Assembly (NCBI GenBank): GCA_012510855.1
Contig: JAAZHE010000011.1
Coordinates: 1 to 50,097, forward strand
Direction: 5' to 3'
Length of the DNA stretch: 50,097 bases
From: Bacillota bacterium
GTDB lineage: Bacteria; Bacillota; Limnochordia; DTU087
This document shows, one piece after another, positions 1 through 50,097 of the stretch (position 1 is its first letter; each line of letters starts with the position of its first letter). A program made the translations under genes and the position numbers. The notes beneath the pieces are model-generated. The model ran no database searches. It saw only the letters and a list, made by a program, of their open reading frames with translations, and was not told the origin of the DNA.

Positions 1-381
1 CTGGTTGACCATTTGTATGTAATATCTAAGTCTAGCATACCCCTAACTAGGTCCGGCAGTGTTAGGTGATCGACCCCAAGAAAGAGAAGAGATATCTTTC
101 TTCTTTATGAAAAAAAACTTCACCAGATACAGAAGGAATACCAAGATCAGACCAGAAGTACTATTACTGGGTAAATACCGGCGGTGAAAAAATATCCACC
201 AAGAAGGAAATCCCAGTGGTTGGTTTTGATTTACCAGGAGGCAGCATCAAAAAACCGCCATGAAACCTGTTAACTGGTGGAGACTGCCCAGGCGTGGTAG
301 TTGGTACCGAGCCCGTAGGCTAGTCCCAAGGACTGGCCCGAAGTGACGAGGTGGTGGGTAATACCCGTGGCCAAGACAGTT

Positions 382-1212: not shown

Positions 1213-1275
1213 TCTAGGAGATGCAGCATCTGATGGATGGTGTATATAGCACCATCAGTTGTTAGGGGGACTCTC

Positions 1276-2244: not shown

Positions 2245-2253
2245 CCGATAGGG

Positions 2254-3504: not shown

Positions 3505-3525
3505 AGAGGAAGGAAGATCAGGACT

Positions 3526-4176: not shown

Positions 4177-4197
4177 AGCTTTGAAAGGAGCAGTTGT

Positions 4198-6473: not shown

Positions 6474-6483
6474 GAGGGGTTGT

Positions 6484-31878: not shown

Positions 31879-31891
31879 GGGGCTTGTCCAT

Positions 31892-33926: not shown

Positions 33927-33970
33927 TGTTGGCTTCTTGTTCTACTTGCCCAGGATTCATCATCCAAAGG

Positions 33971-36356: not shown

Positions 36357-36450
36357 TGGCGGGTTGAAGTAGTGCGGGGCCTCTCGGAAAAGAAGGCCCC
36401 AAGGCTAAGAGGCGGATTTCTATAAACCGCGTAAGAAACTGCTTAACAGT

Positions 36451-36489
36451 AGGCTGTCCTCTGGGTTTTTGGAGGGCAGCCTGTTTTCT
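36451..36489 (+). terminator. Rho-independent terminator
   Basis: 'aggctgtcctct-gggttttt-ggagggcagcct' is a 12-bp stem including G-U pairs, followed by 'gttttctt'. Confidence 0.7.
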
Positions 36490-37919: not shown

Positions 37920-38001
37920 ATCAGGTCTTGAAAAATGTTCCGGAGGGGCAGCAATCAAAGGCAGAAAGGTGCAGGCGGGGACTATGGGACGAAGGGAACC
38001 C

Positions 38002-39183
38002 ATGCGGAGGCTTTATCTGGTTAACGGCAGAGTGATTACACCCTACCGGGTGATAGATTCCGGGGGCGTCGTGATCCAAGGTGAATACATAGAACAAGTC
38101 TTTTCTATGGATGAGGCCATAATCCCCCCGGAGGCTGAGCAGCTTGACGTATATGGGGCATGGATCATGCCGGGCCTCATCGATATGCACCTTCACGGTG
38201 GTGACGGTGCCGATGTCATGGATGCGACTGTTGAAGCCTTTCATGTGATAGCTGCGGCCCATGCCCGAAACGGCACCACCAGCATTGTTCCTACCACCTT
38301 GACAAGTTCATATGCGGTGCTCCGAGATGTGCTGGATGCCTTTGGCGAGGCCAAAAGGCACCGACATCAAGGTGCCCGGCTCTTGGGCATCCATCTCGAG
38401 GGTCCGTATTTCGCCTACGAACAAAGGGGGGCGCAGGATCCGCGTTACCTAAAGAACCCTGAGCCTGAGGAATACCTTGAAATCCTTGATCAGTACCCCT
38501 TTATCCTCAGGGTGTCTGCAGCACCTGAGCTTCCCGGAGCCCTGGAATTGGGAAGGGAGCTTAGGAGGCGGGGAATTGTGGCCGCCATCGGTCACACCAA
38601 CGCATACTTTGAAGATGTCTTAGCTGCAGTAGAAGCCGGCTACACCCATGTTACCCATCTGTATTCCGGCATGGAGGGGGTACGGAGGGTCAACTGCTAC
38701 CGCCGGGCGGGTACCGTCGAGGCAGGTCTTCTCCTGGATGAGCTCACGGTGGAAGTCATCGCGGATGGCAAGCATCTTCCCCCATCACTGCTGCAGCTGG
38801 TCTACAAATGCAAGGGTGCCCACGGTATGGCTCTATGTTCCGATGCACTTCGGGCTGCAGGAATGCCCGAGGGGGTATATCAGATGGGGAGTGAGGATTA
38901 TCAGGTGGTGGTGGAGGACGGCGTTGCCTGGCTGCCAGACCGGTCAGCCTTCGCGGGCAGTGTGGTGGCAGGCAGCGAGCTCCTGAGGACTATGGTAGAA
39001 CTGGCCGGTGTTCCCCTGCCGGATGCCGTCAAAATGGCAACTACCACACCAGCCCGGATCCTCAAGCTGGATGATCAACTAGGCAGTCTTGATAAAGGAA
39101 AATACGCCGATCTTGTGGTTTTGCGGGATGATTTCTCAGTCATGTTCACGATCGTCGGCGGTGAGATAGTATACAAAGGCTAA
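38002..39183 (+). CDS. nagA: N-acetylglucosamine-6-phosphate deacetylase
   Basis: 'PGLIDMHLHGGDGAD', 'GIHLEGPYF', 'AAIGHTNA', 'THLYSGM', 'IADGKH'. The ORF opens at 37969 (GTG); ATG 38002 or 37984 is the likely start. Confidence 0.85.
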   Translation: MRRLYLVNGRVITPYRVIDSGGVVIQGEYIEQVFSMDEAIIPPEAEQLDVYGAWIMPGLIDMHLHGGDGADVMDATVEAFHVIAAAHARNGTTSIVPTTLTSSYAVLRDVLDAFGEAKRHRHQGARLLGIHLEGPYFAYEQRGAQDPRYLKNPEPEEYLEILDQYPFILRVSAAPELPGALELGRELRRRGIVAAIGHTNAYFEDVLAAVEAGYTHVTHLYSGMEGVRRVNCYRRAGTVEAGLLLDELTVEVIADGKHLPPSLLQLVYKCKGAHGMALCSDALRAAGMPEGVYQMGSEDYQVVVEDGVAWLPDRSAFAGSVVAGSELLRTMVELAGVPLPDAVKMATTTPARILKLDDQLGSLDKGKYADLVVLRDDFSVMFTIVGGEIVYKG

Positions 39184-39199: not shown

Positions 39200-39979
39200 A
39201 TGCAGAATCTAGTTAAATCCTTTACAGTCGAGAAGCTAGCTGTGGAGATCTATGAAAATCGGCAGGCCCTAGGGCAGGCGGCAGGTAAGCGAGCCGCTGA
39301 GAAAATGCGGGAACTCCTTAAAGAGCGGGATTCCATCAATGTGGTCTTTGCTGCTGCTCCCTCCCAGAATGAGTTTCTGGACACTTTGATGAGCGAACCG
39401 GATATCGATTGGGAAAGGGTAAGGGCTTTTCATCTAGATGAGTATCTAGGCCTACCCAGCGATGCACCCCAGAGATTTGCCGTTTATCTAAACCAGCGGG
39501 TTTTCAGCAAGGTTAAGTTCAAGGAGATTCATTATCTCAAGGGAGATACCGATTCACCGGAGGCAGAAGCCCAACGCTATGCCGATCTCCTTACAAAATA
39601 TCCTTTGGATATCGCCTTCCTCGGCATCGGTGAAAACGGCCATTTGGCATTCATTGATCCGCCGGTGGCGGATTTCGAAGACCCGTATCTTGTGAAAATA
39701 GTTGAGCTAGACGACATCTGCCGCCAGCAGCAGGTTAACGATGGAGCTTTCCCATCCATTGATCTCGTACCTAAGACGGCCCTCAGCATGACCATCCCTG
39801 CCATCATGGCGGCCAAGAATATCTACTGCATGGTGCCCGGCCCGACCAAGGCTCAGGCGGTGAAGGAGACCTTGTATGGACCCATTGATACCCACTGCCC
39901 AGCCTCCATCCTGCGCCGCCATGACGCAGCGGTACTGTTCATCGATAAGGATTCGGCAGCTTTGCTGGAGGATAAGTAG
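39200..39979 (+). CDS. Glucosamine-6-phosphate deaminase/isomerase family protein (NagB-like)
   Basis: 'FAAAPSQNEF', 'AFHLDEY' and 'AFLGIGENGHLAFIDPP' are typical of the NagB/6-phosphogluconolactonase fold. RBS 'aggaggg'. Confidence 0.8.
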   Translation: MQNLVKSFTVEKLAVEIYENRQALGQAAGKRAAEKMRELLKERDSINVVFAAAPSQNEFLDTLMSEPDIDWERVRAFHLDEYLGLPSDAPQRFAVYLNQRVFSKVKFKEIHYLKGDTDSPEAEAQRYADLLTKYPLDIAFLGIGENGHLAFIDPPVADFEDPYLVKIVELDDICRQQQVNDGAFPSIDLVPKTALSMTIPAIMAAKNIYCMVPGPTKAQAVKETLYGPIDTHCPASILRRHDAAVLFIDKDSAALLEDK

Positions 39980-40080: not shown

Positions 40081-41307
40081 ATGTGGTCAGGTACCAACAG
40101 CAAGGACTTAAAAATACTCAATCGAATACTAGTCAGAAATATCATCCGGAGACGGGGCCCCATCTCCCGCTCTGAGATCGCGCAAGAGACAGGTCTCACC
40201 CCTTCAACGGTGACCGTCATAACCGCAGAACTCCTGGAAGCGGGGGTCATCAAAGAAGCGGGTCACGGTGAGTCGACGGGTGGGCGGCGGCCGGTACTTC
40301 TGGAACTAAACCCCACCGCTGCCCACATCTTCGCGGTCAAGCTGCAGCGGGGAGAAGCGACCGCTGCTCTGTTCGGCCTCACCTGCAACCTGTTGGCGGA
40401 GCGCACTTACCATCTTGACACCGATGCTCCGGAGGGGGTAGTTGAGACCATCGGGCGCTCTTTCCAGGAGCTAGCCCGAGAAGCCGACATCGATCCCGGC
40501 TCTGTGCTCTTGTGCGGGGTGGCTTGCCCAGGCTTAGTCTGTTCTGAGCGGGGGATCGTAGAACGGTCCTCGAACTTGGGCTGGCTGAAGGTCCCCCTGG
40601 GGGAAATGATCAGAAACCGGCTGGGCGGTATCTCGGTACATGTCGAGAATATCTCCAATGCTGCTGCTTTAGCAGAGAAGGAGTTTGGCCTCGGTAAGGG
40701 CTACAGCGACATGGTCTTCGTCAATCTCTCGGTGGGAGTTAGTGCCGGGATCCTGGTCAATGGGGAGATCTACGGCGGAGTTCAGGGCTACGCCGGAGAG
40801 ATCGGCCACGTCAGCTTCATTCCCAAGGATGGCCCCTGGTGCGCCTGCGGCCGGCGAGGCTGTTTTGAAGCAGTTTGCGGTGCAAGGGCAGTATTGGAAC
40901 GCATCAAGGCGCGGGTTCCCGAGGAGGAGTTCGCCCGGTACGGCCTTTCCAAAGACCTGGTGAAGCTGAATGAGCTGATCGGCTCGCCCCTAGTTGATTC
41001 CCCGGAAGTGCAAAGGGTGGTTGATGAGACCGGCAGGGCTGTAGGGATCCTGGTTGCTAATCTGGTGAATCTCTTAAATCCGAGGATCATCATTTTAGGC
41101 GGAGAACTCTCTGCCTTTGGCAAGCCCCTGCTACGGGCGGTTGAAGAAGAAGTGAAGCTGCGGTCTTTGGAGGAAATGTACAACAGCACAAGCATTGAGC
41201 TTTCTAACTTGCGGGGGTCCGGTCCACTGATGGGAGTATATGCCCTGGCCCTTGAAAAGGTGTTCTCCTTAGAGGAGTGGGACGTCAATGTGGAACTGCG
41301 GGTATAG
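40081..41307 (+). CDS. ROK-family transcriptional regulator (NagC/XylR-like)
   Basis: N-terminal wHTH 'ISRSEIAQETGLTPSTVTVITAELLEAGVI', then a ROK sugar-kinase fold with the Zn motif 'CACGRRGCFEAVCG'. Confidence 0.85.
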   Translation: MWSGTNSKDLKILNRILVRNIIRRRGPISRSEIAQETGLTPSTVTVITAELLEAGVIKEAGHGESTGGRRPVLLELNPTAAHIFAVKLQRGEATAALFGLTCNLLAERTYHLDTDAPEGVVETIGRSFQELAREADIDPGSVLLCGVACPGLVCSERGIVERSSNLGWLKVPLGEMIRNRLGGISVHVENISNAAALAEKEFGLGKGYSDMVFVNLSVGVSAGILVNGEIYGGVQGYAGEIGHVSFIPKDGPWCACGRRGCFEAVCGARAVLERIKARVPEEEFARYGLSKDLVKLNELIGSPLVDSPEVQRVVDETGRAVGILVANLVNLLNPRIIILGGELSAFGKPLLRAVEEEVKLRSLEEMYNSTSIELSNLRGSGPLMGVYALALEKVFSLEEWDVNVELRV

Positions 41308-41446: not shown

Positions 41447-42517
41447 ATGCCAACCAAGTCAGGTAAGGTGGGAATCGGAATTGTAGGGGCTAAGTTTGCC
41501 GGCGAACTGCACGCCACCTCTTATGCCCGCTGCGCTGATGCTGAAATGGTAGCGGCCTGCTCCAATCGCCCTGAGGAATTGGAGGAGTTTACAGCCCGCT
41601 TCGGCATCAAGAAGTCTTATTTGGATTATCGGGAACTGGTAAAAGACCCAGAGGTAGATATAGTCAGCATTTGCGTGCCCAATTTCCTGCACTACGAAGT
41701 TGCCATGGCAGCTTGTGAGGCCGGCAAGCATGTAGTGTGCGAAAAACCCCTGGCCACCACCATCGAGCATGCCCGGGAGATGGTGGAAGCCTTTGAGAAA
41801 AAGGGTCTAAAACTCATGTACGCCGAAGATTGGAACTTTGCTCCGGCGCTGGTTCGGGCTAAGCAGATCGTGGATGAAGGGGCTATCGGCGAAATCCTTT
41901 ATATCCGGGCCAAGGAATCCCACAACGGTTCCCATTCGCCCTTTGCCCAGAAGTTGGAATACTGCGGCGGAGGGGCCCTGCTGCACCTCGGCTGCCATCC
42001 CGCTGCCTTCGTCCGCTATATTACGGGACAGGAAGTTGTGGAGGTAGTGGCATCGGTAACCGGCGGCCTGGATGAGAATCTCGTTCACAAAGGTCTTGAG
42101 GGAGAAGACTTTGGCGTTGCTCTCTTGACCCTGGCTAATGGAACCCGTGCCGTTATCGAAGGCAACTACGTGACCCAGGGCGGCATGGATGACTGTGTCG
42201 AGATCTATGGCACCAAGGGTGTTGTCAAGGTAGATTTGACCTTCGGTTCCCCCATCTCTGTCTACAGCTCAGTGGGCTATTCCTACGTGCTGGAGAAGGC
42301 AGATATGTCCACAGGTTGGACGAAGCCTGCCGTTGACGAGTTCTATTCACTGGGGTACCAGACAGAGCTGGCTGAGTTCGTCCGCTGTGTGAAAGAAGAC
42401 CTGCCTGTGCCGCAAGGCGCACGGGGCATTGATGGTTTGATGACTCTGGCCATCATTAAAGCTGCCTATCAGTCAGCTGTGGAAGGCCGTCCAGTCGATC
42501 CCAGGGACTTGGTTTAA
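41447..42517 (+). CDS. Gfo/Idh/MocA-family oxidoreductase
   Basis: 'VGIGIVGAKFAGELH' and 'GKHVVCEKPL'. RBS 'gggagg'. Confidence 0.85.
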   Translation: MPTKSGKVGIGIVGAKFAGELHATSYARCADAEMVAACSNRPEELEEFTARFGIKKSYLDYRELVKDPEVDIVSICVPNFLHYEVAMAACEAGKHVVCEKPLATTIEHAREMVEAFEKKGLKLMYAEDWNFAPALVRAKQIVDEGAIGEILYIRAKESHNGSHSPFAQKLEYCGGGALLHLGCHPAAFVRYITGQEVVEVVASVTGGLDENLVHKGLEGEDFGVALLTLANGTRAVIEGNYVTQGGMDDCVEIYGTKGVVKVDLTFGSPISVYSSVGYSYVLEKADMSTGWTKPAVDEFYSLGYQTELAEFVRCVKEDLPVPQGARGIDGLMTLAIIKAAYQSAVEGRPVDPRDLV

Positions 42518-42534: not shown

Positions 42535-43716
42535 ATGTTTAAAGAGATCGAGTACGCTGGACTCAAGTTCAAAAATCCCTTCGTAGTAGCATCTGGCCCG
42601 CCGGGAGCCACCGTTGAGCGCCTGGTTAAGGCAGAAGATGCAGGTGCTGCAGGTGTATCGGTGAAGCTCACCTTCACGAAGCAGCCCTTCTACGGCCGGC
42701 TGCGGATGTACTCCAAACCAGGCGAAGCTTCCATCGTCTGCCACGATCGGCGGCTGGATATGGAGGAAGGTTTTGAGTTAGTTCGAAAAGGAAAGGAACG
42801 GACTGATCTCAAATTATTGGCTAATATCACCCATCCGGCGGAGGACCTGGAAGGCTGGCAGACCCTGGCTAAGGGATATGAAGAGGCTGGTGCCGATGCC
42901 ATCGAGCTCAACCTCATCTGCCCCAACATCAGCTTTTCCGAACGGCGGATGGGCCGCAGCACAGATAAGTCCCACGGCGCCGCCATCGGACAGCATCCCG
43001 AGATTGTCGAGCAGGTGGTAGGGGCTGTACGGGAAGCTGTCAATATCCCGGTGGTTGCCAAACTGACTCCGAATGTGAATGACATTACCGTCACCGCTAA
43101 GGCTGCCGAGCGGGCAGGAGCTGCCGGCGTCGTCATGGCTGGCGGCCAGTCGGGCCTGCCCCGGGTGGATATTTATAACGGCGGTCGGCCATTAGGCGCC
43201 TATTGTGTCGACGGCTATTCCTTCGGCAGCATGGGTGGCCCCGGCATCATCTACCAGTCCTTTGCCCTTACAGCTCAGCTGGCCCGGGCTTTGAACATCC
43301 CCGTAATGGCCGGCGGCGGTTTGAGCACTTGGGAAGACGGGATCAATTTCATGATGTACGGAGCAACCCTGGTGACTGCTTGTACAGTCCTGATGTGGGA
43401 GGGCTTCGGTGTAATTCGGGAGATTGTAGACGGCATGGAGCGGTTTATGAATGAGGCCGGCTACAGCTCTTGGCAGGATATCATCGGTATGTCTCTCCCG
43501 TATCTAAAACCAGCTAAAGAACTACAAGTTGTACCTGGAAAGGCGGTGATAGATGAGGATATCTGTACAGGATGTCTGAAATGTGTTGGCCTGGCACACT
43601 GTGATGCTATCGTCGAAGCTGACGGTATGCCCCAGGTCATACCAGAGGAATGCGTCGCTTGTGGTATCTGTATTGGAGTTTGCCCAGTAGGGACGATCTC
43701 GGTAGTGGAGTGCTAA
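42535..43716 (+). CDS. PreA/dihydropyrimidine-dehydrogenase-domain-IV-like flavoprotein (DHOD fold) with C-terminal 2x[4Fe-4S] ferredoxin domain
   Basis: 'LKFKNPFVVASGP', 'ADAIELNLICPN', 'IPVVAKLTPNVNDI', 'PVMAGGGLSTWEDG', then 'CTGCLKCVGLAHC' and 'CVACGICIGVCP'. Confidence 0.8.
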   Translation: MFKEIEYAGLKFKNPFVVASGPPGATVERLVKAEDAGAAGVSVKLTFTKQPFYGRLRMYSKPGEASIVCHDRRLDMEEGFELVRKGKERTDLKLLANITHPAEDLEGWQTLAKGYEEAGADAIELNLICPNISFSERRMGRSTDKSHGAAIGQHPEIVEQVVGAVREAVNIPVVAKLTPNVNDITVTAKAAERAGAAGVVMAGGQSGLPRVDIYNGGRPLGAYCVDGYSFGSMGGPGIIYQSFALTAQLARALNIPVMAGGGLSTWEDGINFMMYGATLVTACTVLMWEGFGVIREIVDGMERFMNEAGYSSWQDIIGMSLPYLKPAKELQVVPGKAVIDEDICTGCLKCVGLAHCDAIVEADGMPQVIPEECVACGICIGVCPVGTISVVEC

Positions 43717-43794
43717 AGGCGTAAGCTAAGTGGTCTCTACATCAACAGCAAGCGGAACACAATGAATCTATCTTGAAGAAAAGGAGATGGAGAA

Positions 43795-44955
43795 ATGAAG
43801 CGGTTTGCGCTAATTCTAGCAATCCTGCTAGTAGCTTTTGGTTCAGTCGCCCATGCAAATGAACCTATCGTAATCGGGTTTATCACTGCCCTTACAGGCT
43901 CCACCAGCTTGTGGGGAACCCAGGAAGCTAACGGCGCCATTCTCCGTACCGAAGAGATCAACGCTGCGGGCGGAGTTCTTGGTCGGCCTCTCAAGCTGAT
44001 CGTGTATGACCACAAGGGAAGCCCCCAGGAGGGAGTATTGGCTTACCGCCGTCTAGTTGACGAAGACAAGGCAGTGGCAGTTCTGGGTACCCATTTCTCC
44101 AACATCAGCCTCGCCATTGCCCCAGTAGCAGAGCAGAAGAAAGTGCCGGTACTGGGCCAGGCAGTAGAGCCCAAGGTAACTATGCCGGCTCCCGGCAGGC
44201 TCAACAAGTACCACTTCCTCGCTCAGCCCAGCTGTATTGAGCAGGGTCGGATGATGGCCAGGTTTGCCTTTGAAGAGCTCGGCGCTCGCAAGGCTGCGGT
44301 CCTGACCGACAAATCCAACTCCTACTCCATTTCCCAGGCAGAGCACTTTGCTGAGTACTTCAAGAGCCGGGGTGGAGAGATCACCGACTTCATCGAGTAC
44401 GCAGCTGGTACCGTCGATTACCGTGCTCATCTCACCCAGATCAAGCAGGGTAATCCAGACGTCATCTTCCTGCCCCAGTATGCACAGCCCGGCGGCATGC
44501 AGGTCAAGCAGGCCAAGGAATTGGGTATCGATGCCATCTTCCTAGGCTCCAACAGCTTGTCTGACCCGCCCTTCATGGCTGCTGCTGGCGGTGCCGAGAA
44601 CGTCGCAGGCCTATACTTCCTGTTCAACGTCAACTGGAATGAGCCCAAGTTCGAGGGCTTCATCAAGAACTATGAGGCCAGGTTCGGCGAGAAGCCGGTA
44701 ACTTACCACAGCCTGTTCGGGTATGACGATGTGACCCTGATCTGCGAGGCCATCAAGAACGCTGGATCCACTGACCCCGAGGCAATTCGGACCGCAGTAG
44801 AGAATCTGACCAATGTACCCATCATGTTGGGTGACGGCTACTTCACCATGGATCCCGAGACCCACAGGCCTCTGAATATGCCGTCCTGGATTATGATGTG
44901 GAACGAAGCTGGTGAGCATGTTCCTGTACAGCTAGTTTATCCTCCTGCAGATTAA
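43795..44955 (+). CDS. ABC transporter substrate-binding protein, LIV (branched-chain amino acid/amide) family
   Basis: Signal peptide 'MKRFALILAILLVAFGSVAHA'. 'IVIGFITALTGSTSLWG' and the overall Peripla_BP_6-like pattern. LivHMGF genes follow. Confidence 0.85.
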   Translation: MKRFALILAILLVAFGSVAHANEPIVIGFITALTGSTSLWGTQEANGAILRTEEINAAGGVLGRPLKLIVYDHKGSPQEGVLAYRRLVDEDKAVAVLGTHFSNISLAIAPVAEQKKVPVLGQAVEPKVTMPAPGRLNKYHFLAQPSCIEQGRMMARFAFEELGARKAAVLTDKSNSYSISQAEHFAEYFKSRGGEITDFIEYAAGTVDYRAHLTQIKQGNPDVIFLPQYAQPGGMQVKQAKELGIDAIFLGSNSLSDPPFMAAAGGAENVAGLYFLFNVNWNEPKFEGFIKNYEARFGEKPVTYHSLFGYDDVTLICEAIKNAGSTDPEAIRTAVENLTNVPIMLGDGYFTMDPETHRPLNMPSWIMMWNEAGEHVPVQLVYPPAD

Positions 44956-44980
44956 TCTGGGGGTTAACAGCGGAATTAGC

Positions 44981-45001
44981 GGGGCCGGTAAACCCGGCCC
45001 C
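44981..45001 (+). other. GC-rich intercistronic stem-loop after the binding-protein gene
   Basis: 'ggggccgg-taaac-ccggcccc' is a perfect 8-bp GC stem, followed by 'tgacaaaaaaa' (an A-run, not a T-run). Confidence 0.6.
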
Positions 45002-45028
45002 TGACAAAAAAAGGTAGGGAATGAGCTT

Positions 45029-45901
45029 ATGTTTGTACAGCAACTGGTAAACGGCATCTCACTTGGCTCTATGTATGCACTCTTGGCCGTCGGTTTTGCC
45101 ATTGTGTATAACATCTTGGGGATCGTGAACTTTTCCCACGGAGCTACGATTACATTAGGCGCTTACTGTGCTTACTGGCTTTCGACATATCTACGCCTGC
45201 CCCTGGAGCTTGCTATGGTGACGGCAGTGATTATTGCGGGACTGGTCAGTGCATTAATCGAAAGGGTTACTCTTAATCCACTGCGCCGCAAAGGGCAGCC
45301 CCAGATCTTCTTTTTCATTGCTTCACTGACTGTGTTTAACCTGGTTACCGCCATCGTGATTTATGTTTCCAAAGCCAACATAACATCTTATCCGAGAACT
45401 CTTATCTATGGAAGCATCAGGATGGCAAATGTGGTGGTCCCCAAACTGGATGCTTTGATGCTGGGGATAGCCGTTCTGGCCCTGCTGGCGTTATCTGCAG
45501 TACTTTATAGGACGAAGATCGGGCTGGCCATTCGCTGCTGCTCCTATGACATTAAGGCAGCGCAGCTGATGGGCATCAACACTGACCTGGCCATCGGTGC
45601 CACCTTCATGTTGGCCGGTCTTTTGGGCGGCATCGGCGGTGCCCTTCTGGGCGCAAAATACGCTGTTTATCCCGAGCTTGGCGACATGGTGTACCGGGCC
45701 TTTTTCGCGTGTATGGTGGGAGGCCTGGGTAGTCTGACGGGAGCCATCTTTGGGGGTCTTCTGATCGGCATGATCGAGACGGTCTCCAACGCCTACATCA
45801 ACGCGGCTATCAGTCCAGCTATTACCTTTGGTCTATTGGTCATCATACTGCTTGTCAGACCGCAGGGTATTGCCGGCAAGCTGGTTGAAGACAAGATATA
45901 G
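45029..45901 (+). CDS. livH: Branched-chain amino acid-type ABC permease
   Basis: 'MFVQQLVNGISLGSMYALLAVGFAIVY' is a classic LivH N-terminus. About 8 TM segments. Confidence 0.9.
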   Translation: MFVQQLVNGISLGSMYALLAVGFAIVYNILGIVNFSHGATITLGAYCAYWLSTYLRLPLELAMVTAVIIAGLVSALIERVTLNPLRRKGQPQIFFFIASLTVFNLVTAIVIYVSKANITSYPRTLIYGSIRMANVVVPKLDALMLGIAVLALLALSAVLYRTKIGLAIRCCSYDIKAAQLMGINTDLAIGATFMLAGLLGGIGGALLGAKYAVYPELGDMVYRAFFACMVGGLGSLTGAIFGGLLIGMIETVSNAYINAAISPAITFGLLVIILLVRPQGIAGKLVEDKI

Positions 45902-45913
45902 GAGGTGAGCCAA

Positions 45914-46789
45914 GTGTCGTTTTATGAGAGCGTATTTGTCAACGTAGGCATCATGATCATCATCGCACAGGGAGTATACGTGATCACCGGGCTCACCGGA
46001 CTGTTTTCCCTCGGCCAATCGTCCTTTGTCGCGGTGGGTGCTTATACAGCTGGATTCCTGGCGACTATGTATGGGCTCCATCCCTTTCTGTGCCTTTTGG
46101 CGGGAATGGTGATGTCTGTACTAGTAAGCTTTGTTATCGGTATCCCCAGCCTGCGGCTGCGGCACGTCTACTTTTCCCTTGCCACCATCGCCTATTGATA
46201 TGCTCTGCGGGCCATCCGGATTGTCTCCCAGACCTTTGGAGGGTCCAACGGTTTAGTTGCGATTCCCACTCTAACCCGCTGGTGGCATGTAGTGATAGCA
46301 ATCATCGTCACCGTATGGGCAGTGAGGAACTTCAAGCTGTCCCGGTTCGGCCTGGCCTGTCTTTCGGTGCGCACTGATGAACTGGCAGCTAGAACCTACG
46401 GGATTCAGACCTTTGTCAGCAAGCAGATTGCCTTTTCCTTCGCAGCTGCAATTTCCGGCCTGGCCGGCGGTCTTTTGGCCTTCAATCTAGGGTATTTATC
46501 TCCAGATATGTTCGGTGTGCCCATTTCCTCAGAGTACCTGATTATGGTATTCTTCGGCGGCCTTTACAGCCAAACCGGTGCTGTGGTGGGATCTGCCCTG
46601 CTCACGGTGCTGATGGAGCTTCTTAGGACCACAGCCGCCTGGCGGATGATCGCTTACTCCGCGATTATCTTGATTATCATCCTTGTTAAACCTAATGGAC
46701 TGTTCGGCACCTGGGAATTCAGTTTCGATTCCTTAAATCCTCAGCGGCGCGCCAAACAGGGACTGGCAAAGGGAGGTGAGAGGGCATGA
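45914..46789 (+). pseudogene. livM: LivM-type ABC permease interrupted by a single in-frame TGA (46196-46198)
   Basis: ORFs 45905..46198 and 46292..46789 are in the same frame. The read-through translation is continuous LivM-like sequence ('...VYFSLATIAY*YALRAIRIVSQTFGGSNGLVAIP...'). The likely start is GTG 45914, 8 nt after 'ggagg'. Confidence 0.75.
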
Positions 46790-47562
46790 ACGCCTCAACG
46801 GAGCATGTACTGGAGGTAAAGGATCTATGCAAACAGTTCGGGGGCCTCGTTGCCGTTGACAATATGTGCTTCAGCGTGCATCCTCAGCAGATTGTGGGGA
46901 TTATTGGGCCCAATGGAGCTGGGAAAACAACGGTTTTCAATCTCATCAGCGGCATCACACCTCCGACCAGTGGGCAGATCCTCTTGGACGGCAACTGCAT
47001 TACCTCACATTCTTGCCATCAAGTGGCTATGTTGGGCATGAGGAGGACATTTCAAGAAATCCACCTCTTCCGGGGCCTAACGGTACTTCAGAATGTAAAA
47101 TCCGCAGCCTACCGGCAGATGGGTTACTCCTTGGTGGATGCCCTGCTCTGGACCAGGAAGCTGAGAAGCGAAGAACGGGCCATAACCGAGCTAGCTATGG
47201 AGCTCTTGGATCGATTTGGTCTAGCCGGAACCGCCCACGAGCGAGCCGACAGTCTGCCCTACGGCATGCAGAAGCGCCTTGAGATCGTCAAGGCCATCGT
47301 GTCAAATCCCAAAGTGCTGCTCTTAGATGAGCCCGCCGCCGGACTCAACGATGGAGAAACCATCGAACTCATGGAGCTGATTCACAAGATCCGAGAGGAA
47401 ATGGACATGACCATCCTCATTATCGAGCACTCCATGGAGGTCATCGAGGGGATCTGTGACCACGTGATTGTGATGAATTTCGGTAAGAAACTGGCCGAGG
47501 GCTCCTGGGATGAAGTCCGTACCAATGAAGAAGTAATTCGCTGTTATCTGGGGGTGGACTAG
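46786..47562 (+). CDS. livG: ABC transporter ATP-binding protein (LivG type)
   Basis: ATGA overlap with livM. 'GPNGAGKTT' and 'LLLDEPAAGLN', plus the LivG-type C-terminal extension. Confidence 0.9.
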   Translation: MNASTEHVLEVKDLCKQFGGLVAVDNMCFSVHPQQIVGIIGPNGAGKTTVFNLISGITPPTSGQILLDGNCITSHSCHQVAMLGMRRTFQEIHLFRGLTVLQNVKSAAYRQMGYSLVDALLWTRKLRSEERAITELAMELLDRFGLAGTAHERADSLPYGMQKRLEIVKAIVSNPKVLLLDEPAAGLNDGETIELMELIHKIREEMDMTILIIEHSMEVIEGICDHVIVMNFGKKLAEGSWDEVRTNEEVIRCYLGVD

Positions 47563-47563
47563 G

Positions 47564-48292
47564 GTGTTAAAGGTTGAAAACCTGTGTGTTTCCTACGGAG
47601 CCGTAAAGGCCTTGCGCAACATCAGCATTGAGGTGCCGGAAGGATCCATCGTCGCCTTGGTGGGAGCAAACGGAGCCGGTAAGACCAGCTTGCTGTCGGC
47701 TATATCCGGTCTTGTGCCCTATGAAGGCACCATCACCTATGCTGGAGAACCTTTGCCTAAGCGGAGCCATGAGATCGTTGCCAAGGGATTAGTCCATGTA
47801 CCGGAGGGCCGCCGCATCTTTGCCAACCTCACGGTTTATGAAAATCTCATGGCCGGTGCCTATACCGCCTGGGACAAGAACGGCATCAAAGAAAACCTAG
47901 ACAGGGTTTATCAGCTGTTTCCAAGGCTCAAGAACCGGGAAACGCAGTATGCCGGTACCCTCTCAGGAGGAGAGCGGCAGATGCTGGCAATTGGACGGGC
48001 CCTGATGAGCCGGCCCCGGATGCTCCTGGTGGATGAGCCGTCCTTGGGGTTAGCTCCCCTTCTGGTCAGCCAGGTCTTAGACCTGATTGTTCAAGTCAAT
48101 AAGCAGGGTGTAACAATCCTCTTGGTTGACCAGAATGCCCGTAAGTCCCTGCAGATTGCGGACTATGCCTATGTTCTCCAGCAGGGGAAAATCGTCAAAG
48201 AGGGCCGGGGTCAAGACCTCCTCAATGACGAAGCAGTGCAGATTGCTTACCTTGGCGGTAGAAAAAAGGAGTCAGATAACTGTACAGCTTAA
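47564..48292 (+). CDS. livF: ABC transporter ATP-binding protein (LivF type)
   Basis: GTG 47564. 'GANGAGKTS', 'LSGGERQMLAIGRAL', 'LLVDEPSLGLAP'. Confidence 0.9.
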   Translation: MLKVENLCVSYGAVKALRNISIEVPEGSIVALVGANGAGKTSLLSAISGLVPYEGTITYAGEPLPKRSHEIVAKGLVHVPEGRRIFANLTVYENLMAGAYTAWDKNGIKENLDRVYQLFPRLKNRETQYAGTLSGGERQMLAIGRALMSRPRMLLVDEPSLGLAPLLVSQVLDLIVQVNKQGVTILLVDQNARKSLQIADYAYVLQQGKIVKEGRGQDLLNDEAVQIAYLGGRKKESDNCTA

Positions 48293-48315
48293 TCGACAGG
48301 GAGGGCCGAGGCTAG

Positions 48316-49179
48316 GTGAACATCACTACCCGTCTGAGCAGACCCGATGAAAGTGCCACTATCCATGAAGTCATAGATACGGCCCGGTGGGGTATCACCC
48401 GGGAATGTGTTGAACTAGTATTAACCCTCGATCCGCAAGGATATGTTCTAGGCCTCGATGAAACCGGTCGGGCCCTGGGAGTAGGATTTGGCCTGGGGTT
48501 AGGGCAGACGGCTTGGTTGGGCCATCTTGTGGTACGCCCTGAAGCCCGAGGTCAGGGTTTGGGTACCCGCTTGTTTACTGAGCTCTTAGAGAAAGTAAAG
48601 CAAGCGGGCAGATGGCCCATCTATCTTACTGCCACCGAAATGGGCGCACCGCTTTATGCCAAGTTTGGCTTTGTTCTAGATGGCGGCTTAACCCGCTGGG
48701 AAATCCCGGAAAACAGCCAAGTGAAAGTGGACGAGAGCTGGTCCCGACATCCAGACATCCAGGTCCTCAAGATCAAGGAAGAAGACTTACCCGAAATCGC
48801 TGAATTCGATGCCCTGCGGTTCGGCGACAATCGGGGTGAACTTTTGGCCTTATTCTATCGATTATATCCAGAAAATGGGCGGCTGGCACGGCGCTCAGAC
48901 GGCCAGCTCGCCGGTTATGTCCTCGGGGGGACATTAGGTTTGGGACCCTTTGTCGCTGATGCCGATGCGGCGGGGCCCCTCTTTGCTGAAGCTCTGACCA
49001 TGCCCCTTGAAGGTAGACCCCCGAGGTCCTTTACCTTCCTTGATGCCAATACACAAGCTGCGGAGCTCTGCCAAAGGGCAGGTCTTGTTTCTACCAGGAC
49101 TTGGGTGCGGATGAGACTAGGTGAAGGCTGTCAGCCCAAGGATGAGACCATCTTTAATATGTCAGTAGCACACGGCTAA
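48316..49179 (+). CDS. Two-domain GNAT-family N-acetyltransferase
   Basis: The acetyl-CoA motif A is 'LVVRPEARGQGLGTRLF', with 'APLYAKFGF' downstream. The C-terminal ~150 aa resemble the YitH-type second domain. Confidence 0.75.
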   Translation: MNITTRLSRPDESATIHEVIDTARWGITRECVELVLTLDPQGYVLGLDETGRALGVGFGLGLGQTAWLGHLVVRPEARGQGLGTRLFTELLEKVKQAGRWPIYLTATEMGAPLYAKFGFVLDGGLTRWEIPENSQVKVDESWSRHPDIQVLKIKEEDLPEIAEFDALRFGDNRGELLALFYRLYPENGRLARRSDGQLAGYVLGGTLGLGPFVADADAAGPLFAEALTMPLEGRPPRSFTFLDANTQAAELCQRAGLVSTRTWVRMRLGEGCQPKDETIFNMSVAHG

Positions 49180-49219
49180 TCTACCGTTGGCCAAGGCTGA
49201 TTATAAGGAGGCAGAAATC

Positions 49220-50097
49220 ATGATCGACTTCGGTGGACTAAAGCTGAGAAACCCTGTAGTAATAGCCTCGGGACCGGTTAGCGCAACCATTGAACAACTA
49301 GAGGCCGCGGATCGAGCGGGTGCCGCTGCGGCCAGCATCAAGCAGGTAATGACCCGGCAGACATTCCGGGGCAACCTGCGGGCCTACTCCCAGCCCGACC
49401 ATGTGATGATCTTCCCCATCGACAGGCGGTTAGACGTGGAAGAAGGTCTGGAGCTGGTAAAAGAGGCCAAACGGCGAAAACTAAAGATGGCAATCATCGT
49501 GAACCTCTCCTCCCAGGAGCCTGACATCGAAGATTACGGCCGTCTTGCCCGCAAGTTCGAGCAAGCTGGAGCCGATGCCATCGAGATCAATCTCTGCTGC
49601 CCCAACTTCAGCTTAACCAAAAGGCAGCTGGGGCGTACTGTAACCGAAGATGATATTGAGACCGGCGCGGTCACTGGCCAAAACCCCAAGCTGGCGGCAG
49701 CAATAACCAAGTGCATTAAGGACTATGTAGACATTCCAGTCATTCCCAAACTCACCCCCACGGCCCTTGATCCCGGTCTGGTGGCAGAGATGTGCGAACA
49801 GGCTGGAGCCGACGGTTTCTCAGTTGTCGGTGGTCCCAGCTTAGGCGCACCTCCAGTTGATATCTACAACCAGGGAAGACCTCTGTATCCCCTGATGGAG
49901 CGAGCCGCCTTCGGAGCCATGACCGGTTCCATCATCCGCTACGCGACCTTCAAGATCACCGGCCAGGTGGCCCAACGGGTAAAGGCCCCGGTAATGTCCT
50001 CCGGTGGCATCGATACTTGGGAACACGCCATTCAGATGATGATGTACGGCGCTAAGGTAGTATCTGTCTGCACGTCTGTGATGTGGCACGGCTGGGA
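49220..50097 (+). CDS. PreA/DPD-like flavoprotein, paralogue of 42535..43716 (3'-truncated by the window end)
   Basis: This ORF is not in the supplied track because it has no stop in the window. ATG 49220 follows 'aaggagg'. 'LKLRNPVVIASGP', 'ADAIEINLCCPN', 'IPVIPKLTP' and 'PVMSSGGIDTWEHA' are collinear with the 42535 protein, at roughly 40% identity by eye. Confidence 0.8.
   Translation, partial: MIDFGGLKLRNPVVIASGPVSATIEQLEAADRAGAAAASIKQVMTRQTFRGNLRAYSQPDHVMIFPIDRRLDVEEGLELVKEAKRRKLKMAIIVNLSSQEPDIEDYGRLARKFEQAGADAIEINLCCPNFSLTKRQLGRTVTEDDIETGAVTGQNPKLAAAITKCIKDYVDIPVIPKLTPTALDPGLVAEMCEQAGADGFSVVGGPSLGAPPVDIYNQGRPLYPLMERAAFGAMTGSIIRYATFKITGQVAQRVKAPVMSSGGIDTWEHAIQMMMYGAKVVSVCTSVMWHGW

What the first reader, a model, noticed from the sequence alone, without database searches (positions are those of the whole stretch)
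42535..50097. Two paralogous PreA/DPD-like flavo-FeS proteins, apparently lacking the catalytic Cys, bracket a LIV-type importer and a GNAT
Seen in the sequence: 42535..43716 and the window-truncated 49220..50097 are collinear paralogues of the DHOD/dihydropyrimidine-dehydrogenase fold. The first carries two C-terminal 4Fe-4S motifs. Between them lie a complete LivJ-HMGF-type ABC importer and a two-domain GNAT. A Gfo/Idh/MocA gene sits immediately upstream.

I aligned these from memory to the mammalian DPD loop 'GMGLACGQDPELV', whose Cys is the catalytic acid. The corresponding residues here read 'HGAAIGQHPEIV' (Ile151, nt 42985-42987) and 'TGAVTGQNPKL' (Thr152, nt 49673-49675). No PreT/GltD-like NAD(P)H-FAD partner subunit is present in the window.

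Inference: this is a reductase or oxidase system acting on an imported nitrogenous or acidic substrate other than pyrimidines, possibly with an acetylation step. It does not match a pathway I know.
Basis: partly seen in the sequence, partly recalled or inferred. Interest (0 to 1): 0.65.

Follow-up and report, generated by a model that had tools for sequence, protein, structure and literature searches.

The report
PreA-like reductases in sugar-acid operon
Their substrate pocket is remodelled, and in anaerobes of three phyla they sit in operons for an imported acidic (amino) sugar, so they probably act on a sugar-derived intermediate rather than on a pyrimidine.

Summary
The gene layout is as described: Gfo/Idh/MocA, PreA-like P1 (FMN barrel plus 2x[4Fe-4S]), a five-gene LIV-type ABC importer, a two-domain GNAT and a truncated paralogue P2 (45% identical).

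The headline claim is wrong. The catalytic Cys of DPD is Cys671 in 'LNLSCP'. It aligns with P1 Cys129 ('LNLICP') and P2 Cys127 ('INLCCP') and is present in 222/222 homologues.

The proteins are nevertheless not ordinary PreA or PyrD:
- They score below both curated cut-offs.
- They lack the pyrimidine-binding Asn609 and Asn736/Thr737.
- They carry a conserved D-[RK]-R motif and an 8-13 residue active-site-loop insertion.
- No PreT gene occurs in the window or in 52 related loci (816 kb).

In Bacillota, Chloroflexota and Bathyarchaeia this subfamily lies next to Gfo/Idh/MocA. It often lies with a NagB-like deaminase, an amidohydrolase, the LIV importer, and hexuronate/hexonate-to-KDPG genes. 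Those last genes are also in this window, at 343-7722. Metatranscriptome contigs bridge the gene junctions.

Best reading: a probably ferredoxin-driven FMN reductase for a carboxylated sugar-derived enone. The substrate is unknown. This is a new variant of a known kind, of moderate interest.

The parts
343..7722 (+). 'Lower pathway' operon. RpiR regulator 343-1212; D-2-hydroxyacid dehydrogenase 1237-2244; BH0493-type uronate isomerase 2254-3504; KDPG/KHG aldolase (Eda) 3526-4176; SDR D-mannonate oxidoreductase 4198-5016; FGGY sugar-acid kinase 5013-6473; LarA-family Ni-dependent putative hexonate epimerase 6448-7722.
   Evidence: Pfam. NCBIfam matches above the curated cut-off: Eda TIGR01182 195>156, D-mannonate oxidoreductase NF006132 385>281, hexonate epimerase NF052594 605>500. 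The 2254-3504 product matches PDB BH0493 uronate isomerase at 440 bits, E 5e-131. Orthologues of RpiR, 2-Hacid_dh, Eda, SDR and FGGY lie contiguous with the DHOD-FeS/LIV cluster in L014, L052, L055, L050 and L013.
37969..39183 (+). NagA, N-acetylglucosamine-6-phosphate deacetylase type amidohydrolase.
   Evidence: TIGR00221 280 bits against a cut-off of 226. NagA-like, creatininase-family or Amidohydro_3 genes accompany the module in relatives.
39200..39979 (+). NagB-like deaminase/isomerase (Glucosamine_iso family, divergent subfamily).
   Evidence: nagB TIGR00502 scores 130 bits, below the 237 cut-off. Best PDB match is B. subtilis NagB at 118 bits. D72, H143 and K208 (E. coli numbering) are kept; the motif holding R172, 'ANSRFF', becomes 'VNDGAF'; 'PTGGTP' becomes 'AAAPSQ'. 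It is 49-59% identical to copies next to the DHOD-FeS gene in at least 23 loci of three phyla.
40081..41307 (+). ROK-family NagC/Mlc-like regulator.
   Evidence: NagC model 216 bits, below cut-off. ROK genes recur in related loci.
41447..42517 (+). Gfo/Idh/MocA NAD(P)-dependent sugar dehydrogenase, the conserved partner of the DHOD-FeS gene.
   Evidence: Pfam. It is adjacent to or near the DHOD-FeS gene in 39 of 49 loci by tblastn and 31 of 47 by HMM. Nearest solved relatives are sugar and inositol dehydrogenases, including DgpA and GFOR. An RNA contig at 42379-42559 bridges into P1.
42535..43716 (+). P1: PreA/DPD-like FMN barrel plus C-terminal 2x[4Fe-4S] domain ('AGGQS' clade).
   Evidence: AlphaFold2 model pLDDT 83.6; Foldseek best match is pig DPD, TM 0.75.
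42745..42759 (+). P1 Asp71-Arg72-Arg73-Leu74-Asp75, the subfamily motif at the place of the DPD Asn609 'N-x-E-L-I' segment.
   Evidence: D[RK]R is present in about 165 of 222 homologues and absent from PreA/PyrD-type sequences.
42919..42921 (+). P1 Cys129, the counterpart of the DPD catalytic Cys671.
   Evidence: 222/222 homologues. PMC3674756, PMC8097209.
43138..43152 (+). P1 'AGGQS', which replaces DPD 'TNTVS' (Asn736/Thr737).
   Evidence: Residue roles from PMC10970046.
43564..43686 (+). P1 ferredoxin-like domain with eight cluster-binding cysteines.
43795..44955 (+). LIV-type (Peripla_BP_6) substrate-binding protein.
   Evidence: Pfam 237 bits. The counterparts of LivJ Ser79, Thr102, Tyr150 and Tyr202 are kept, and Glu226 is Asn in all 14 members compared. 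It is the most abundant transcript of the region in digester metatranscriptomes.
45029..48292 (+). LivH (45029-45901), LivM (45905-46789, with in-frame TGA at 46196-46198), LivG (46786-47562), LivF (47564-48292).
   Evidence: Pfam. Relatives read TGT at the TGA position. Three DNA metagenome runs and one RNA run read C at 46198, giving TGC.
48316..49179 (+). Two-domain GNAT, lineage-specific and not part of the conserved module.
   Evidence: Pfam. Present only in the window, L002 and L005, and at 47% identity in L006.
49220..50097 (+). P2: paralogue of P1 ('VGGPS' clade), cut by the window end. Catalytic Cys127 is at 49598-49600.
   Evidence: The 91%-identical orthologue P0121 is 394 aa, has the 2x[4Fe-4S] tail and is followed by a NanE gene.

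Best explanation
SHOWN
- P1 and P2 belong to two sister clades of an uncharacterised PreA/DPD-like subfamily of about 390 aa, built as an FMN TIM barrel plus a C-terminal 2x[4Fe-4S] domain.
- They keep the catalytic machinery of the family: Cys129, Asn126, Lys44 and Lys176.
- Their substrate pocket is rebuilt. There is no Asn609 or Asn736/Thr737 equivalent; there is a conserved D-[RK]-R motif and a longer active-site loop.
- They have no PreT/GltD partner.
- They are embedded in, and co-transcribed with, a sugar-catabolic gene set that is conserved across three phyla.

INFERRED
1. Without a partner that binds NAD(P)H and FAD, the two clusters wire the FMN to a one-electron carrier, most likely ferredoxin. 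This is what was shown for the clostridial enzyme PydAc.
2. The enzyme performs the family's chemistry on a non-pyrimidine substrate: hydride from FMNH2 to the beta carbon and a proton from Cys to the alpha carbon of a C=C conjugated to a carbonyl.
3. That substrate is a carboxylated, sugar-derived enone or enaminone made by the adjacent Gfo/Idh/MocA dehydrogenase (keto-sugar formation, possibly followed by beta-elimination). The Arg pair would hold the carboxylate.
4. The pathway starts with an acidic, probably N-acylated, amino sugar taken up by the LIV-type importer. The sugar is deacylated (NagA-like or creatininase-like enzyme) and deaminated/isomerised (NagB-like enzyme). It then drains through keto-uronate and hexonate steps to KDPG and the Eda aldolase (mannonate oxidoreductase, LarA-type hexonate epimerase, 2-hydroxyacid dehydrogenase, kinase).
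5. P1 and P2 serve two related substrates.

The identity of the substrate is not established.
For: FAMILY AND CATALYTIC RESIDUES
-; fold.

NOT PreA OR PyrD
- Below curated cut-offs.
- Asn/Thr replaced by Gly-Gly or Gly-Ala, and the D[RK]R motif present, in about 165 of 222 homologues. The PreA/PyrD-like outgroup keeps N-T.
- Ligand roles of N609, N668, S670, N736 and T737 come from PMC10970046.

NO PreT
- tblastn finds nothing in the window plus 52 loci, 816 kb.
- Precedent for a stand-alone DPD-type enzyme that uses ferredoxin or methyl viologen: PMC7332683.

SYNTENY
- Gfo is near the gene in 39 of 49 loci and the NagB-like gene in at least 23.
- Recurrent neighbours are creatininase-family, 2-Hacid_dh, Eda, LIV SBP, LarA, Ldh_2, SDR and kinase genes.
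- Full operons: L050, L052, L055 for the P2 clade, and Caldicoprobacter oshimai with a Mannitol_dh-type reductase.
- The matching lower-pathway operon is in this window at 343-7722.

TRANSCRIPTION
- RNA contigs span Gfo|P1, P1|LivJ, LivH|LivM and GNAT|P2.
- Terminator-like and promoter-like sites are no more frequent than in shuffled sequence.

HINTS OF AN ACIDIC LIGAND THAT IS NOT A FREE AMINO ACID
- The SBP keeps the positions I recall as carboxylate-binding in LivJ but has Asn in place of Glu226.
- The NagB-like protein has lost Arg172 but keeps Lys208.
Against: - No member of the subfamily has been assayed, and I found no paper on it.
- Ferredoxin dependence, the direction of the reaction and the substrate are all inferences.
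- The NagB-like gene, the LIV importer and the amidohydrolases are each missing from many loci. Some of those loci are short contigs. The 'amino' and 'imported acid' parts may therefore hold only for some lineages.
- Some relatives lack any Gfo neighbour: L015, L016, L047, L048, and L056, where the gene sits next to a pyruvate dehydrogenase complex.
- The window also has a bona fide NagA, and its syntenic relative a NanE. Both act on 6-phosphates, which fits an ordinary GlcNAc/ManNAc route better than an aminouronate route.
- The roles I assign to LivJ Glu226 and NagB Arg172/Lys208 come from memory and were not verified here.
- The pocket residues were placed by alignment in a poorly conserved, low-pLDDT region: residues 54-70 have pLDDT below 50.
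Confidence: 0.4

Rival explanations
1. They are ordinary dihydropyrimidine dehydrogenase catalytic subunits (PreA, or ferredoxin-dependent as in PydAc) that reduce uracil or thymine. The sugar genes are merely neighbours.
For: The best NCBIfam match of P1 is PreA at 220 bits. The best structural match is pig DPD. The catalytic Cys, Asn668 equivalent, both Lys and the C-terminal 2x[4Fe-4S] domain are kept. A PreT-less, ferredoxin-dependent DPD exists (PMC7332683).
Against: The score is well below the PreA cut-off of 335. The equivalents of Asn609, Asn736, Thr737 and Ser670 are replaced throughout the subfamily, while true PreA-like outgroups keep them. There are no dihydropyrimidinase or ureidopropionase neighbours. 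There is no N-terminal ferredoxin domain such as PydAc has. Synteny with Gfo and NagB-like genes holds across three phyla.
Confidence: 0.06
2. They run in the oxidative direction, as DHOD does. They would dehydrogenate a saturated sugar acid or amino sugar acid (C-C, or C-N as in the imine chemistry of glutamate synthase) and pass electrons through the clusters to an acceptor. An example would be oxidative deamination of a 2-amino-aldonate to a 2-keto-aldonate, which the 2-hydroxyacid dehydrogenase then reduces.
For: DHODs of the same fold work oxidatively with the same Cys or Ser base (family knowledge). 2-Hacid_dh, an FGGY gluconokinase-like kinase and Eda co-occur, which would fit a 2-keto-aldonate intermediate. 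A Gfo enzyme could supply an aldonolactone.
Against: Reducing ferredoxin with electrons from C-C or C-N dehydrogenation is thermodynamically uphill (inference). No conserved acceptor gene (ETF, quinone-linked subunit, PyrK) is in the loci. The NagB-like protein already provides a non-oxidative deamination.
Confidence: 0.2
3. The locus is a mosaic of independent units: a standard Leu/Ile/Val importer, a GlcNAc/ManNAc (NagA-NagB-NanE) route and unrelated redox genes, with no common pathway.
For: NagA passes its curated cut-off. NanE follows P2 in the syntenic contig. The transporter belongs to the HAAT family. The GNAT is lineage-specific.
Against: LIV genes travel with the DHOD-FeS gene in at least 11 loci, including distant Firmicutes and one Chloroflexi locus, in both the P1 and P2 clades. 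RNA contigs bridge P1|LivJ and GNAT|P2. Gaps between genes run from a 4-nt overlap to 78 nt, with no terminator signal above chance. The SBP has Asn at the Glu226 position. The NagB-like gene scores below the nagB cut-off and co-varies with the module across phyla.
Confidence: 0.12
4. P1 and P2 are class-1B-like dihydroorotate dehydrogenases used for pyrimidine biosynthesis in an anaerobe.
For: Pfam DHO_dh; the second-best NCBIfam matches are pyrD models.
Against: Scores of 152 and 128 bits against a cut-off near 270. There is no PyrK and there are no pyr genes nearby. The orotate-binding Asn of the 'INT' motif is lost. A C-terminal ferredoxin domain is typical of PreA/DPD, not of PyrD.
Confidence: 0.02

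Closest known systems
E. coli PreA (with PreT), NAD-dependent dihydropyrimidine dehydrogenase
   Same: Domain order (FMN barrel then 2x[4Fe-4S]), size, the 'N-x-x-C-P' catalytic loop, both FMN-site lysines and Asn126.
   Different: No PreT gene. Score of 220 against a cut-off of 335. 'KNMEQI' is replaced by 'CHDRRL' and 'AINTV' by 'MAGGQ'. There is an 8-13 residue insertion after the Cys. The genes sit in a sugar operon.
Pig dihydropyrimidine dehydrogenase (PDB 1h7w, 1gt8, 1h7x)
   Same: Best sequence and fold match for the FMN and C-terminal Fe-S domains (E 7e-35; TM 0.75). Cys671 aligns with Cys129.
   Different: The DPD domains that bind NADPH and FAD and the N-terminal Fe-S domain are absent. 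The pyrimidine ligands N609, S670, N736 and T737 are not conserved.
PydAc, ferredoxin-dependent DPD of Clostridium chromiireducens (PMC7332683)
   Same: A DPD-type FMN/Fe-S enzyme without an NAD(P)H/FAD module, driven by reduced ferredoxin or methyl viologen. It is the functional precedent for how P1 and P2 could be reduced.
   Different: According to the paper, PydAc keeps an N-terminal ferredoxin domain, lies in a pyd cluster and reduces uracil. P1 starts directly with the barrel and lies in a sugar cluster. I could not compare the sequences, because the PydAc sequence is not held.
Lactococcus lactis DHOD B (PyrDb/PyrK, PDB 1ep1-3)
   Same: Barrel fold, and the Cys in 'NISCPN'.
   Different: DHOD B has no ferredoxin tail and uses PyrK. 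Its Asn in 'INT' binds orotate, whereas P1 and P2 have Gly-Gly there.
Gfo/Idh/MocA keto-sugar routes (C-glycoside DgpA, levoglucosan dehydrogenase, 3-keto-glycoside pathways)
   Same: A Gfo/Idh/MocA dehydrogenase whose closest relatives include DgpA-type enzymes sits next to the enzyme that would handle the oxidised sugar.
   Different: In the known routes the partner is a xylose-isomerase-like lyase or hydratase, not a flavo-Fe-S reductase. That the Gfo product is the reductase's substrate is my inference.
Hexuronate (Ashwell-type) catabolism: uronate isomerase, mannonate oxidoreductase, KDG kinase, Eda
   Same: The window and related loci encode a BH0493-type uronate isomerase, an SDR D-mannonate oxidoreductase, a kinase and Eda.
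   Different: No UxuA- or UxaA-type dehydratase was seen. A LarA-type hexonate epimerase, a 2-Hacid_dh, a NagB-like deaminase and the Gfo plus DHOD-FeS pair are added.

Membership tests
DHOD/DPD/Dus FMN-barrel superfamily (PF01180) | Sequence and fold match to the FMN TIM barrel. | tested here: met
   Pfam 87 and 86 bits against a cut-off of 27. AlphaFold2 model with pTM 0.83; Foldseek to DPD at E 1e-25 and to DHODB at E 1e-17.
DHOD/DPD/Dus FMN-barrel superfamily (PF01180) | Catalytic Cys (or Ser) in the loop after the 'N-L-x' strand. | tested here: met
   P1 Cys129 and P2 Cys127; present in 222/222 homologues.
PreA, NAD-dependent DPD subunit (NF006183) | Score at or above the curated cut-off of 335 bits. 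| tested here: not met
   P1 scores 219.8 bits. P2, which is truncated, scores 109.9 bits.
PreA, NAD-dependent DPD subunit (NF006183) | Adjacent PreT (GltD-like NADH/FAD/Fe-S) subunit. | tested here: not met
   No tblastn hit at E<=1e-3 in the 50-kb window or in 52 related loci. The rest of the genome could not be searched.
PreA, NAD-dependent DPD subunit (NF006183) | Pyrimidine-binding Asn609, Asn668, Asn736 and Thr737. | tested here: not met
   Only the Asn668 equivalent (Asn126) is kept. 'NT' is replaced by 'GG', and the Asn609 segment by 'HDRRLD'.
PreA, NAD-dependent DPD subunit (NF006183) | C-terminal 2x[4Fe-4S] ferredoxin domain. | tested here: met
   Eight Cys; Fer4 and Fer4_21 matches. 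Also present in the P2 orthologue.
PreA, NAD-dependent DPD subunit (NF006183) | Uracil or thymine reduction. | not testable with these tools
   Needs an enzyme assay.
PydAc-type ferredoxin-dependent DPD | N-terminal ferredoxin domain plus FMN domain plus C-terminal ferredoxin domain, located in a pyd (PydB/PydC) cluster. | tested here: not met
   P1 begins with the barrel at residue 5. No dihydropyrimidinase or ureidopropionase is in the window region or in related loci.
PyrD class 1B (TIGR01037 / NF005574) | Score at or above about 270 bits, and the orotate-binding Asn residues. | tested here: not met
   152 and 128 bits. The 'INT' Asn is replaced.
HAAT (LIV) ABC importer | Peripla_BP_6 SBP, two BPD_transp_2 permeases and two ATPases. 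| tested here: met
   livM carries a TGA in this record, but reads TGC or TGT in related populations.
HAAT (LIV) ABC importer | Leu/Ile/Val specificity (LivJ ligand residues, including Glu226 for the alpha-ammonium group). | tested here: inconclusive
   Ser79, Thr102, Tyr150 and Tyr202 are kept, and Glu226 is Asn in all 14 SBPs compared. The residue roles are recalled from memory, not checked. The LivJ subfamily model scores 107 bits against a cut-off of 477.
NagB, glucosamine-6-phosphate deaminase (TIGR00502) | Score at or above 237 bits, plus catalytic Asp72 and His143 and the phosphate site (Arg172, Lys208, 'TGGT' loop). | tested here: not met
   130 bits. Asp72, His143 and Lys208 are kept. 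The Arg172 motif and the loop are changed. The phosphate-site roles are recalled from memory.

The most novel reading that the evidence does not exclude
Gfo/Idh/MocA plus the DHOD-FeS enzyme form a previously undescribed, ferredoxin-driven 'oxidise then ene-reduce' module. The Gfo enzyme would make a keto-sugar acid whose ring segment heteroatom-C(COO-)=CH-C(=O) is an isostere of orotate, for example a 3-keto-4,5-unsaturated (amino)hexuronate. The DHOD-like enzyme would then reduce that double bond. This would define a new anaerobic route for acidic amino sugars shared by Bacillota, Chloroflexota and Bathyarchaeia. Candidate substrates are hexosaminuronates from capsules, teichuronic acids or pseudomurein. 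Their carbon would be delivered to 2-keto-3-deoxy-gluconate/KDPG via the LarA-type epimerase and the 2-hydroxyacid dehydrogenase.
Probability: 0.15. Interest if true: 0.75.

Novelty: new variant of a known kind. Interest (0 to 1): 0.5.

Why it matters
- The DHOD/DPD fold is known for pyrimidine and tRNA-uridine chemistry. A clade that keeps the catalytic apparatus but has swapped its substrate ligands, and that is wired into sugar-acid operons of uncultured anaerobes in digesters, sediments and the subsurface, would extend the fold to carbohydrate metabolism.
- It could fill a gap: I found no described catabolic route for aminouronic acids or similar necromass sugars.
- Automatic names such as 'PreA', 'dihydroorotate dehydrogenase' or '4Fe-4S binding protein' on these proteins are probably misleading. 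This matters for gut-microbiome surveys that count PreA homologues as 5-fluorouracil inactivators.
- The case is also a caution. The catalytic Cys must be located by alignment to the 'LNLSCP' loop, not to the mammalian 'GLACGQ' segment.

Tried and rejected
1. Gfo-DHOD fusion as Rosetta-stone evidence. P0102 (626 aa) joins the two parts through a low-complexity linker ('...KKKNNIRHMKFFRQIFFFFLNHNGQ...') that looks like read-through of an AT-rich spacer on a 2-kb contig. I rejected it.
2. Selenocysteine recoding of the livM TGA, prompted by Cys in orthologues. The downstream hairpin is no better than in shuffled sequence (z -0.27). There is no Rfam hit. Near-identical populations read TGC. Rejected.
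3. Literature. Four searches for the module and one for aminouronate catabolism found nothing relevant.
4. Operon signals. The promoter and terminator scan gave no more sites than shuffled sequence.
5. Alignment A1 was too diverse for the locus scan. I repeated the scan with A2.
6. Crude motif counting on the 150 representative-library hits did not classify them reliably, so I give only the E-value counts.
7. I weighed several substrate schemes: muramic acid or its delta-lactam, glucosaminate, ascorbate/gulonate, Amadori/Heyns compounds, and plain 4,5-unsaturated uronates. Plain unsaturated uronates seem unlikely to need a reductase, because they open spontaneously to 4-deoxy-5-keto-uronate (family knowledge). 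None of the other schemes can be excluded or supported with these tools.

Full report
WHAT IS IN THE WINDOW

All genes from 37969 to the end of the window lie on the + strand. Neighbouring genes range from a 4-nt overlap to a 139-nt gap. In order they are:
- NagA, 37969-39183 (TIGR00221 280 bits, cut-off 226)
- a NagB-like gene, 39200-39979
- a ROK/NagC-like regulator, 40081-41307
- Gfo/Idh/MocA, 41447-42517
- P1, 42535-43716
- LivJ, LivH, LivM, LivG and LivF, 43795-48292
- a two-domain GNAT, 48316-49179
- P2, 49220-50097, which runs off the window

P1 and P2 both match Pfam DHO_dh and are 45% identical (E 5e-85). P1 ends in a ferredoxin-like domain with eight cysteines.

THE CATALYTIC CYSTEINE

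The central observation does not hold.
- HMMER alignment of P1 to pig DPD puts DPD 'ELNLSCPH' on P1 'ELNLICPN'. The deposited C671A (1h7x) and C671S (7m31) variants differ from wild type at exactly that column. The PDB titles returned by the fold search name the same mutants.
- I aligned P1 and P2 with E. coli PreA (taken from the K-12 record), pig DPD, L. lactis DHODB and 222 homologues. The Cys is present in 222/222: P1 Cys129 (nt 42919-42921) and P2 Cys127 (nt 49598-49600).
It is Val in E. coli PreA and Phe in DHODB. The mammalian Cys there is a lineage peculiarity, not the catalytic acid.

WHY THESE ARE STILL NOT ORDINARY PreA OR PyrD

- P1 scores 220 bits on the PreA model (cut-off 335) and 152 on pyrD (cut-off 270). 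P2 behaves alike.
- In the 5-fluorouracil complex of DPD the base is held by N609, N668, S670, N736 and T737 (PMC10970046). Only the N668 equivalent (Asn126) survives here.
- 'TNTVS' has become 'AGGQS' in P1 and 'VGGPS' in P2. S670 is Ile in P1 and Cys in P2. The 'N-x-E-L-I' segment is replaced by a conserved '[HYI]-D-[RK]-R-L-D'.
- The flexible active-site loop carries an insertion of 8-13 residues.
- These changes define about 170 of the 222 homologues, in two clades: the P1 type, A-G-[GA]-[QH] (n=120), and the P2 type, x-G-G-[PT] (n=49). The 43 PreA/PyrD-like outgroup sequences keep N-T.
- The AlphaFold2 model (pLDDT 83.6) matches DPD (TM 0.75) and then DHODB. No closer solved structure exists. 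Its low-confidence stretches are the lid before the DRR motif and the inserted loop.
- In a library of 1.84 billion representative proteins, 636 match the subfamily profile at E<=1e-30 with a continuous fall in score. Only about two dozen exceed about 330 bits.

NO PreT PARTNER

tblastn with E. coli PreT finds nothing in the window or in 52 related loci, 816 kb in total. The syntenic contigs L002 and L005 extend past the window end. They show that P2 is 394 aa with the same 2x[4Fe-4S] tail, and that the next gene is NanE, not PreT. A clostridial DPD homologue without the NAD(P)H/FAD module has been shown to use reduced ferredoxin or methyl viologen (PMC7332683). That is the precedent for how these enzymes may be reduced. 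It is an inference here, not a result.

CONTEXT ACROSS GENOMES

The closest genome match is the MAG 'Clostridiales bacterium DTU087', at 90% identity and fully syntenic. Other carriers are Bacillota, Anaerolineae/Chloroflexota and Bathyarchaeia MAGs, plus cultured Caldicoprobacter oshimai, Hydrogenispora ethanolica and Anaerotruncus massiliensis.

Neighbour frequencies:
- A Gfo/Idh/MocA gene lies beside or near the DHOD-FeS gene in 39 of 49 loci.
- The NagB-like gene, 49-59% identical across phyla, is present in at least 23 loci.
- De novo clustering and HMM searches add further recurrent neighbours: creatininase-family amidohydrolases (13 loci, often in tandem), D-2-hydroxyacid dehydrogenase (14), KDPG aldolase (9), the LIV SBP (11), LarA-family (6), Ldh_2, Zn-ADH, SDR, PfkB/FGGY kinases, and MR_MLE plus DHDPS.

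Complete operons:
- L050: LacI, P1-type, NagB-like, LIV ABC, Gfo, SDR, FGGY, Eda, 2-Hacid_dh.
- L055: ROK, NagA-like, Gfo, Gfo, P2-type, LIV ABC, NagB-like, 2-Hacid_dh, FGGY, Eda.
- C. oshimai: Mannitol_dh-type reductase, LacI, NagB-like, Gfo, Gfo, DHOD-FeS, Gfo, Amidohydro_3.

Both paralogue clades therefore head equivalent operons.

THE OTHER HALF OF THE PATHWAY IS IN THIS WINDOW

Positions 343-7722 encode seven genes:
- RpiR
- a 2-hydroxyacid dehydrogenase
- a protein with no Pfam or NCBIfam match that is a clear homologue of the BH0493 uronate isomerase (440 bits, E 5e-131)
- Eda (above cut-off)
- an SDR 'D-mannonate oxidoreductase' (385 bits, cut-off 281)
- an FGGY kinase
- a LarA-family 'nickel-dependent putative hexonate epimerase' (605 bits, cut-off 500)

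Orthologues of five of these genes, 46-80% identical in the main examples, are contiguous with the DHOD-FeS/LIV cluster in L014, L052, L055, L050 and L013. The module therefore feeds a hexuronate/hexonate-to-KDPG route.

IS THE IMPORTER PART OF IT?

- It travels with the enzyme in distant genomes, as listed above.
- In anaerobic-digester metatranscriptomes, assembled RNA contigs span Gfo|P1 (42379-42559), P1|LivJ (43398-44431), LivH|LivM (45748-46013) and GNAT|P2 (49082-49288). The SBP gene has the highest depth. RNA libraries can contain DNA, so this is good evidence but not proof.
- Terminator-like sites are no more frequent than in shuffled sequence.
- The SBP keeps the counterparts of LivJ Ser79, Thr102, Tyr150 and Tyr202 but has Asn for Glu226 in all 14 members compared. 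From memory, Glu226 binds the ligand's alpha-ammonium group and the other residues bind its carboxylate. If that is right, the ligand is an acid that is not a free alpha-amino acid.
- The NagB-like protein keeps Asp72, His143 and Lys208 but has lost the 'ANSRFF' Arg172 and the 'PTGGTP' loop. From memory these belong to the phosphate site, which suggests a different anionic group.

HOW IT MOST LIKELY WORKS

Shown: a PreA-like FMN/2x[4Fe-4S] enzyme with an intact proton donor, a rebuilt pocket and no PreT, conserved next to a sugar dehydrogenase and co-transcribed with an importer.

Inferred:
- Electrons enter from ferredoxin.
- The enzyme reduces a C=C conjugated to a carbonyl in a carboxylated sugar derivative produced by the Gfo enzyme.
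- The Arg pair binds the carboxylate.
- Upstream steps are uptake of an acidic, probably N-acylated, amino sugar, then deacylation, then NagB-like deamination/isomerisation to a keto-uronate.
- Downstream steps are mannonate oxidoreductase, hexonate epimerase, 2-hydroxyacid dehydrogenase, kinase and Eda.

I give this composite about 0.4. The family-level statements alone are near certain. The 'acidic amino sugar' part is about 0.3. The specific orotate-isostere idea (a 3-keto-4,5-unsaturated uronate) is about 0.15. The main rival is an oxidative role, at about 0.2. A true pyrimidine reductase is unlikely, at about 0.06.

WEAKNESSES

- Nothing has been assayed.
- Several loci lack the Gfo, NagB-like or LIV genes.
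- NagA and NanE point to 6-phosphate chemistry.
- The pocket assignments rest on alignment in a variable, low-confidence region.

NOVELTY

I found no paper on this subfamily or module in the held library. It is a new variant of a known enzyme kind rather than a new kind, and a good target for enzyme discovery.

Noticed in passing
window 46196-46260 (livM): There is an in-frame TGA at 46196-46198 where relatives have TGT (Cys). Three DNA metagenome runs that hold 87-98% of the region's 31-letter words, and one RNA run, read C at 46198 (TGC). The three DNA runs also differ from the window at 46209, 46218, 46243, 46248 and 46260. The stop and this cluster of six mismatches look like a strain variant or a consensus error in this record, not a general pseudogene. 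Selenocysteine recoding is not supported.
   Followed up: yes
window 2254-3504: A 416-aa protein has no Pfam or NCBIfam match at the thresholds used, but is a close homologue (E 5e-131) of the structurally characterised BH0493 uronate isomerase. Profile-based annotation would therefore leave it unnamed.
   Followed up: yes
window 343-7722: This is a hexuronate/hexonate operon: RpiR, 2-Hacid_dh, uronate isomerase, Eda, mannonate oxidoreductase, FGGY kinase and a LarA-type hexonate epimerase. I saw no UxuA- or UxaA-type dehydratase, so how the 3-deoxy-2-keto acid for Eda is made is unclear.
   Followed up: partly
window 39200-39979 and at least 23 related loci: This NagB-like subfamily keeps Asp72, His143 and Lys208 but lacks the Arg172 motif and the 'TGGT' loop. 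It is 49-59% identical between Bacillota, Chloroflexota and Bathyarchaeia, which suggests horizontal spread of the module and a substrate other than GlcN-6-P.
   Followed up: partly
window 21464-37919: The region holds further sugar genes: two more Gfo/Idh/MocA genes (21464-22492, 27375-28604), D-lyxose isomerase (22917-23615), an Opp/Dpp-type ABC system (24094-26037 and 29635-33926), a Zn-ADH, two xylose-isomerase-like TIM barrels (28655-29491, 37035-37919) and a 720-aa protein with an arabinofuranosidase C-terminal domain (34194-36356). Pairs of Gfo and TIM-barrel genes resemble keto-sugar elimination pathways.
   Followed up: no
window 7862-9721: A methyl-accepting chemotaxis protein with a dCache sensor lies directly after the hexonate operon. 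It may sense the same substrates.
   Followed up: no
P0102 (626 aa, 2-kb Logan contig): This apparent fusion of a Gfo C-terminal part and DHOD-FeS is joined by a low-complexity linker. It is probably a gene-calling read-through, not a real fusion.
   Followed up: yes
L056 (Treponemataceae contig) 10001-11191: Here a P2-clade homologue follows pyruvate dehydrogenase E1/E2/E3 genes, overlapping the E3 gene end by 4 nt, with no Gfo or sugar genes nearby. This context does not fit the sugar model.
   Followed up: no
representative-library hits P0263, P0266, P0273, P0275, P0278, P0279, P0302 (775-886 aa): In these long proteins the DHOD-like barrel is N-terminal and is followed by about 450 further residues of unknown nature. 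Some carry an 'EKRLT' motif at the DRR position. They may be a fused relative with its own electron-input module.
   Followed up: no
window 45006: A one-base deletion relative to the window, in the LivJ-LivH spacer, is seen in contigs of two DNA runs and one RNA run. It is a minor strain or consensus difference.
   Followed up: no
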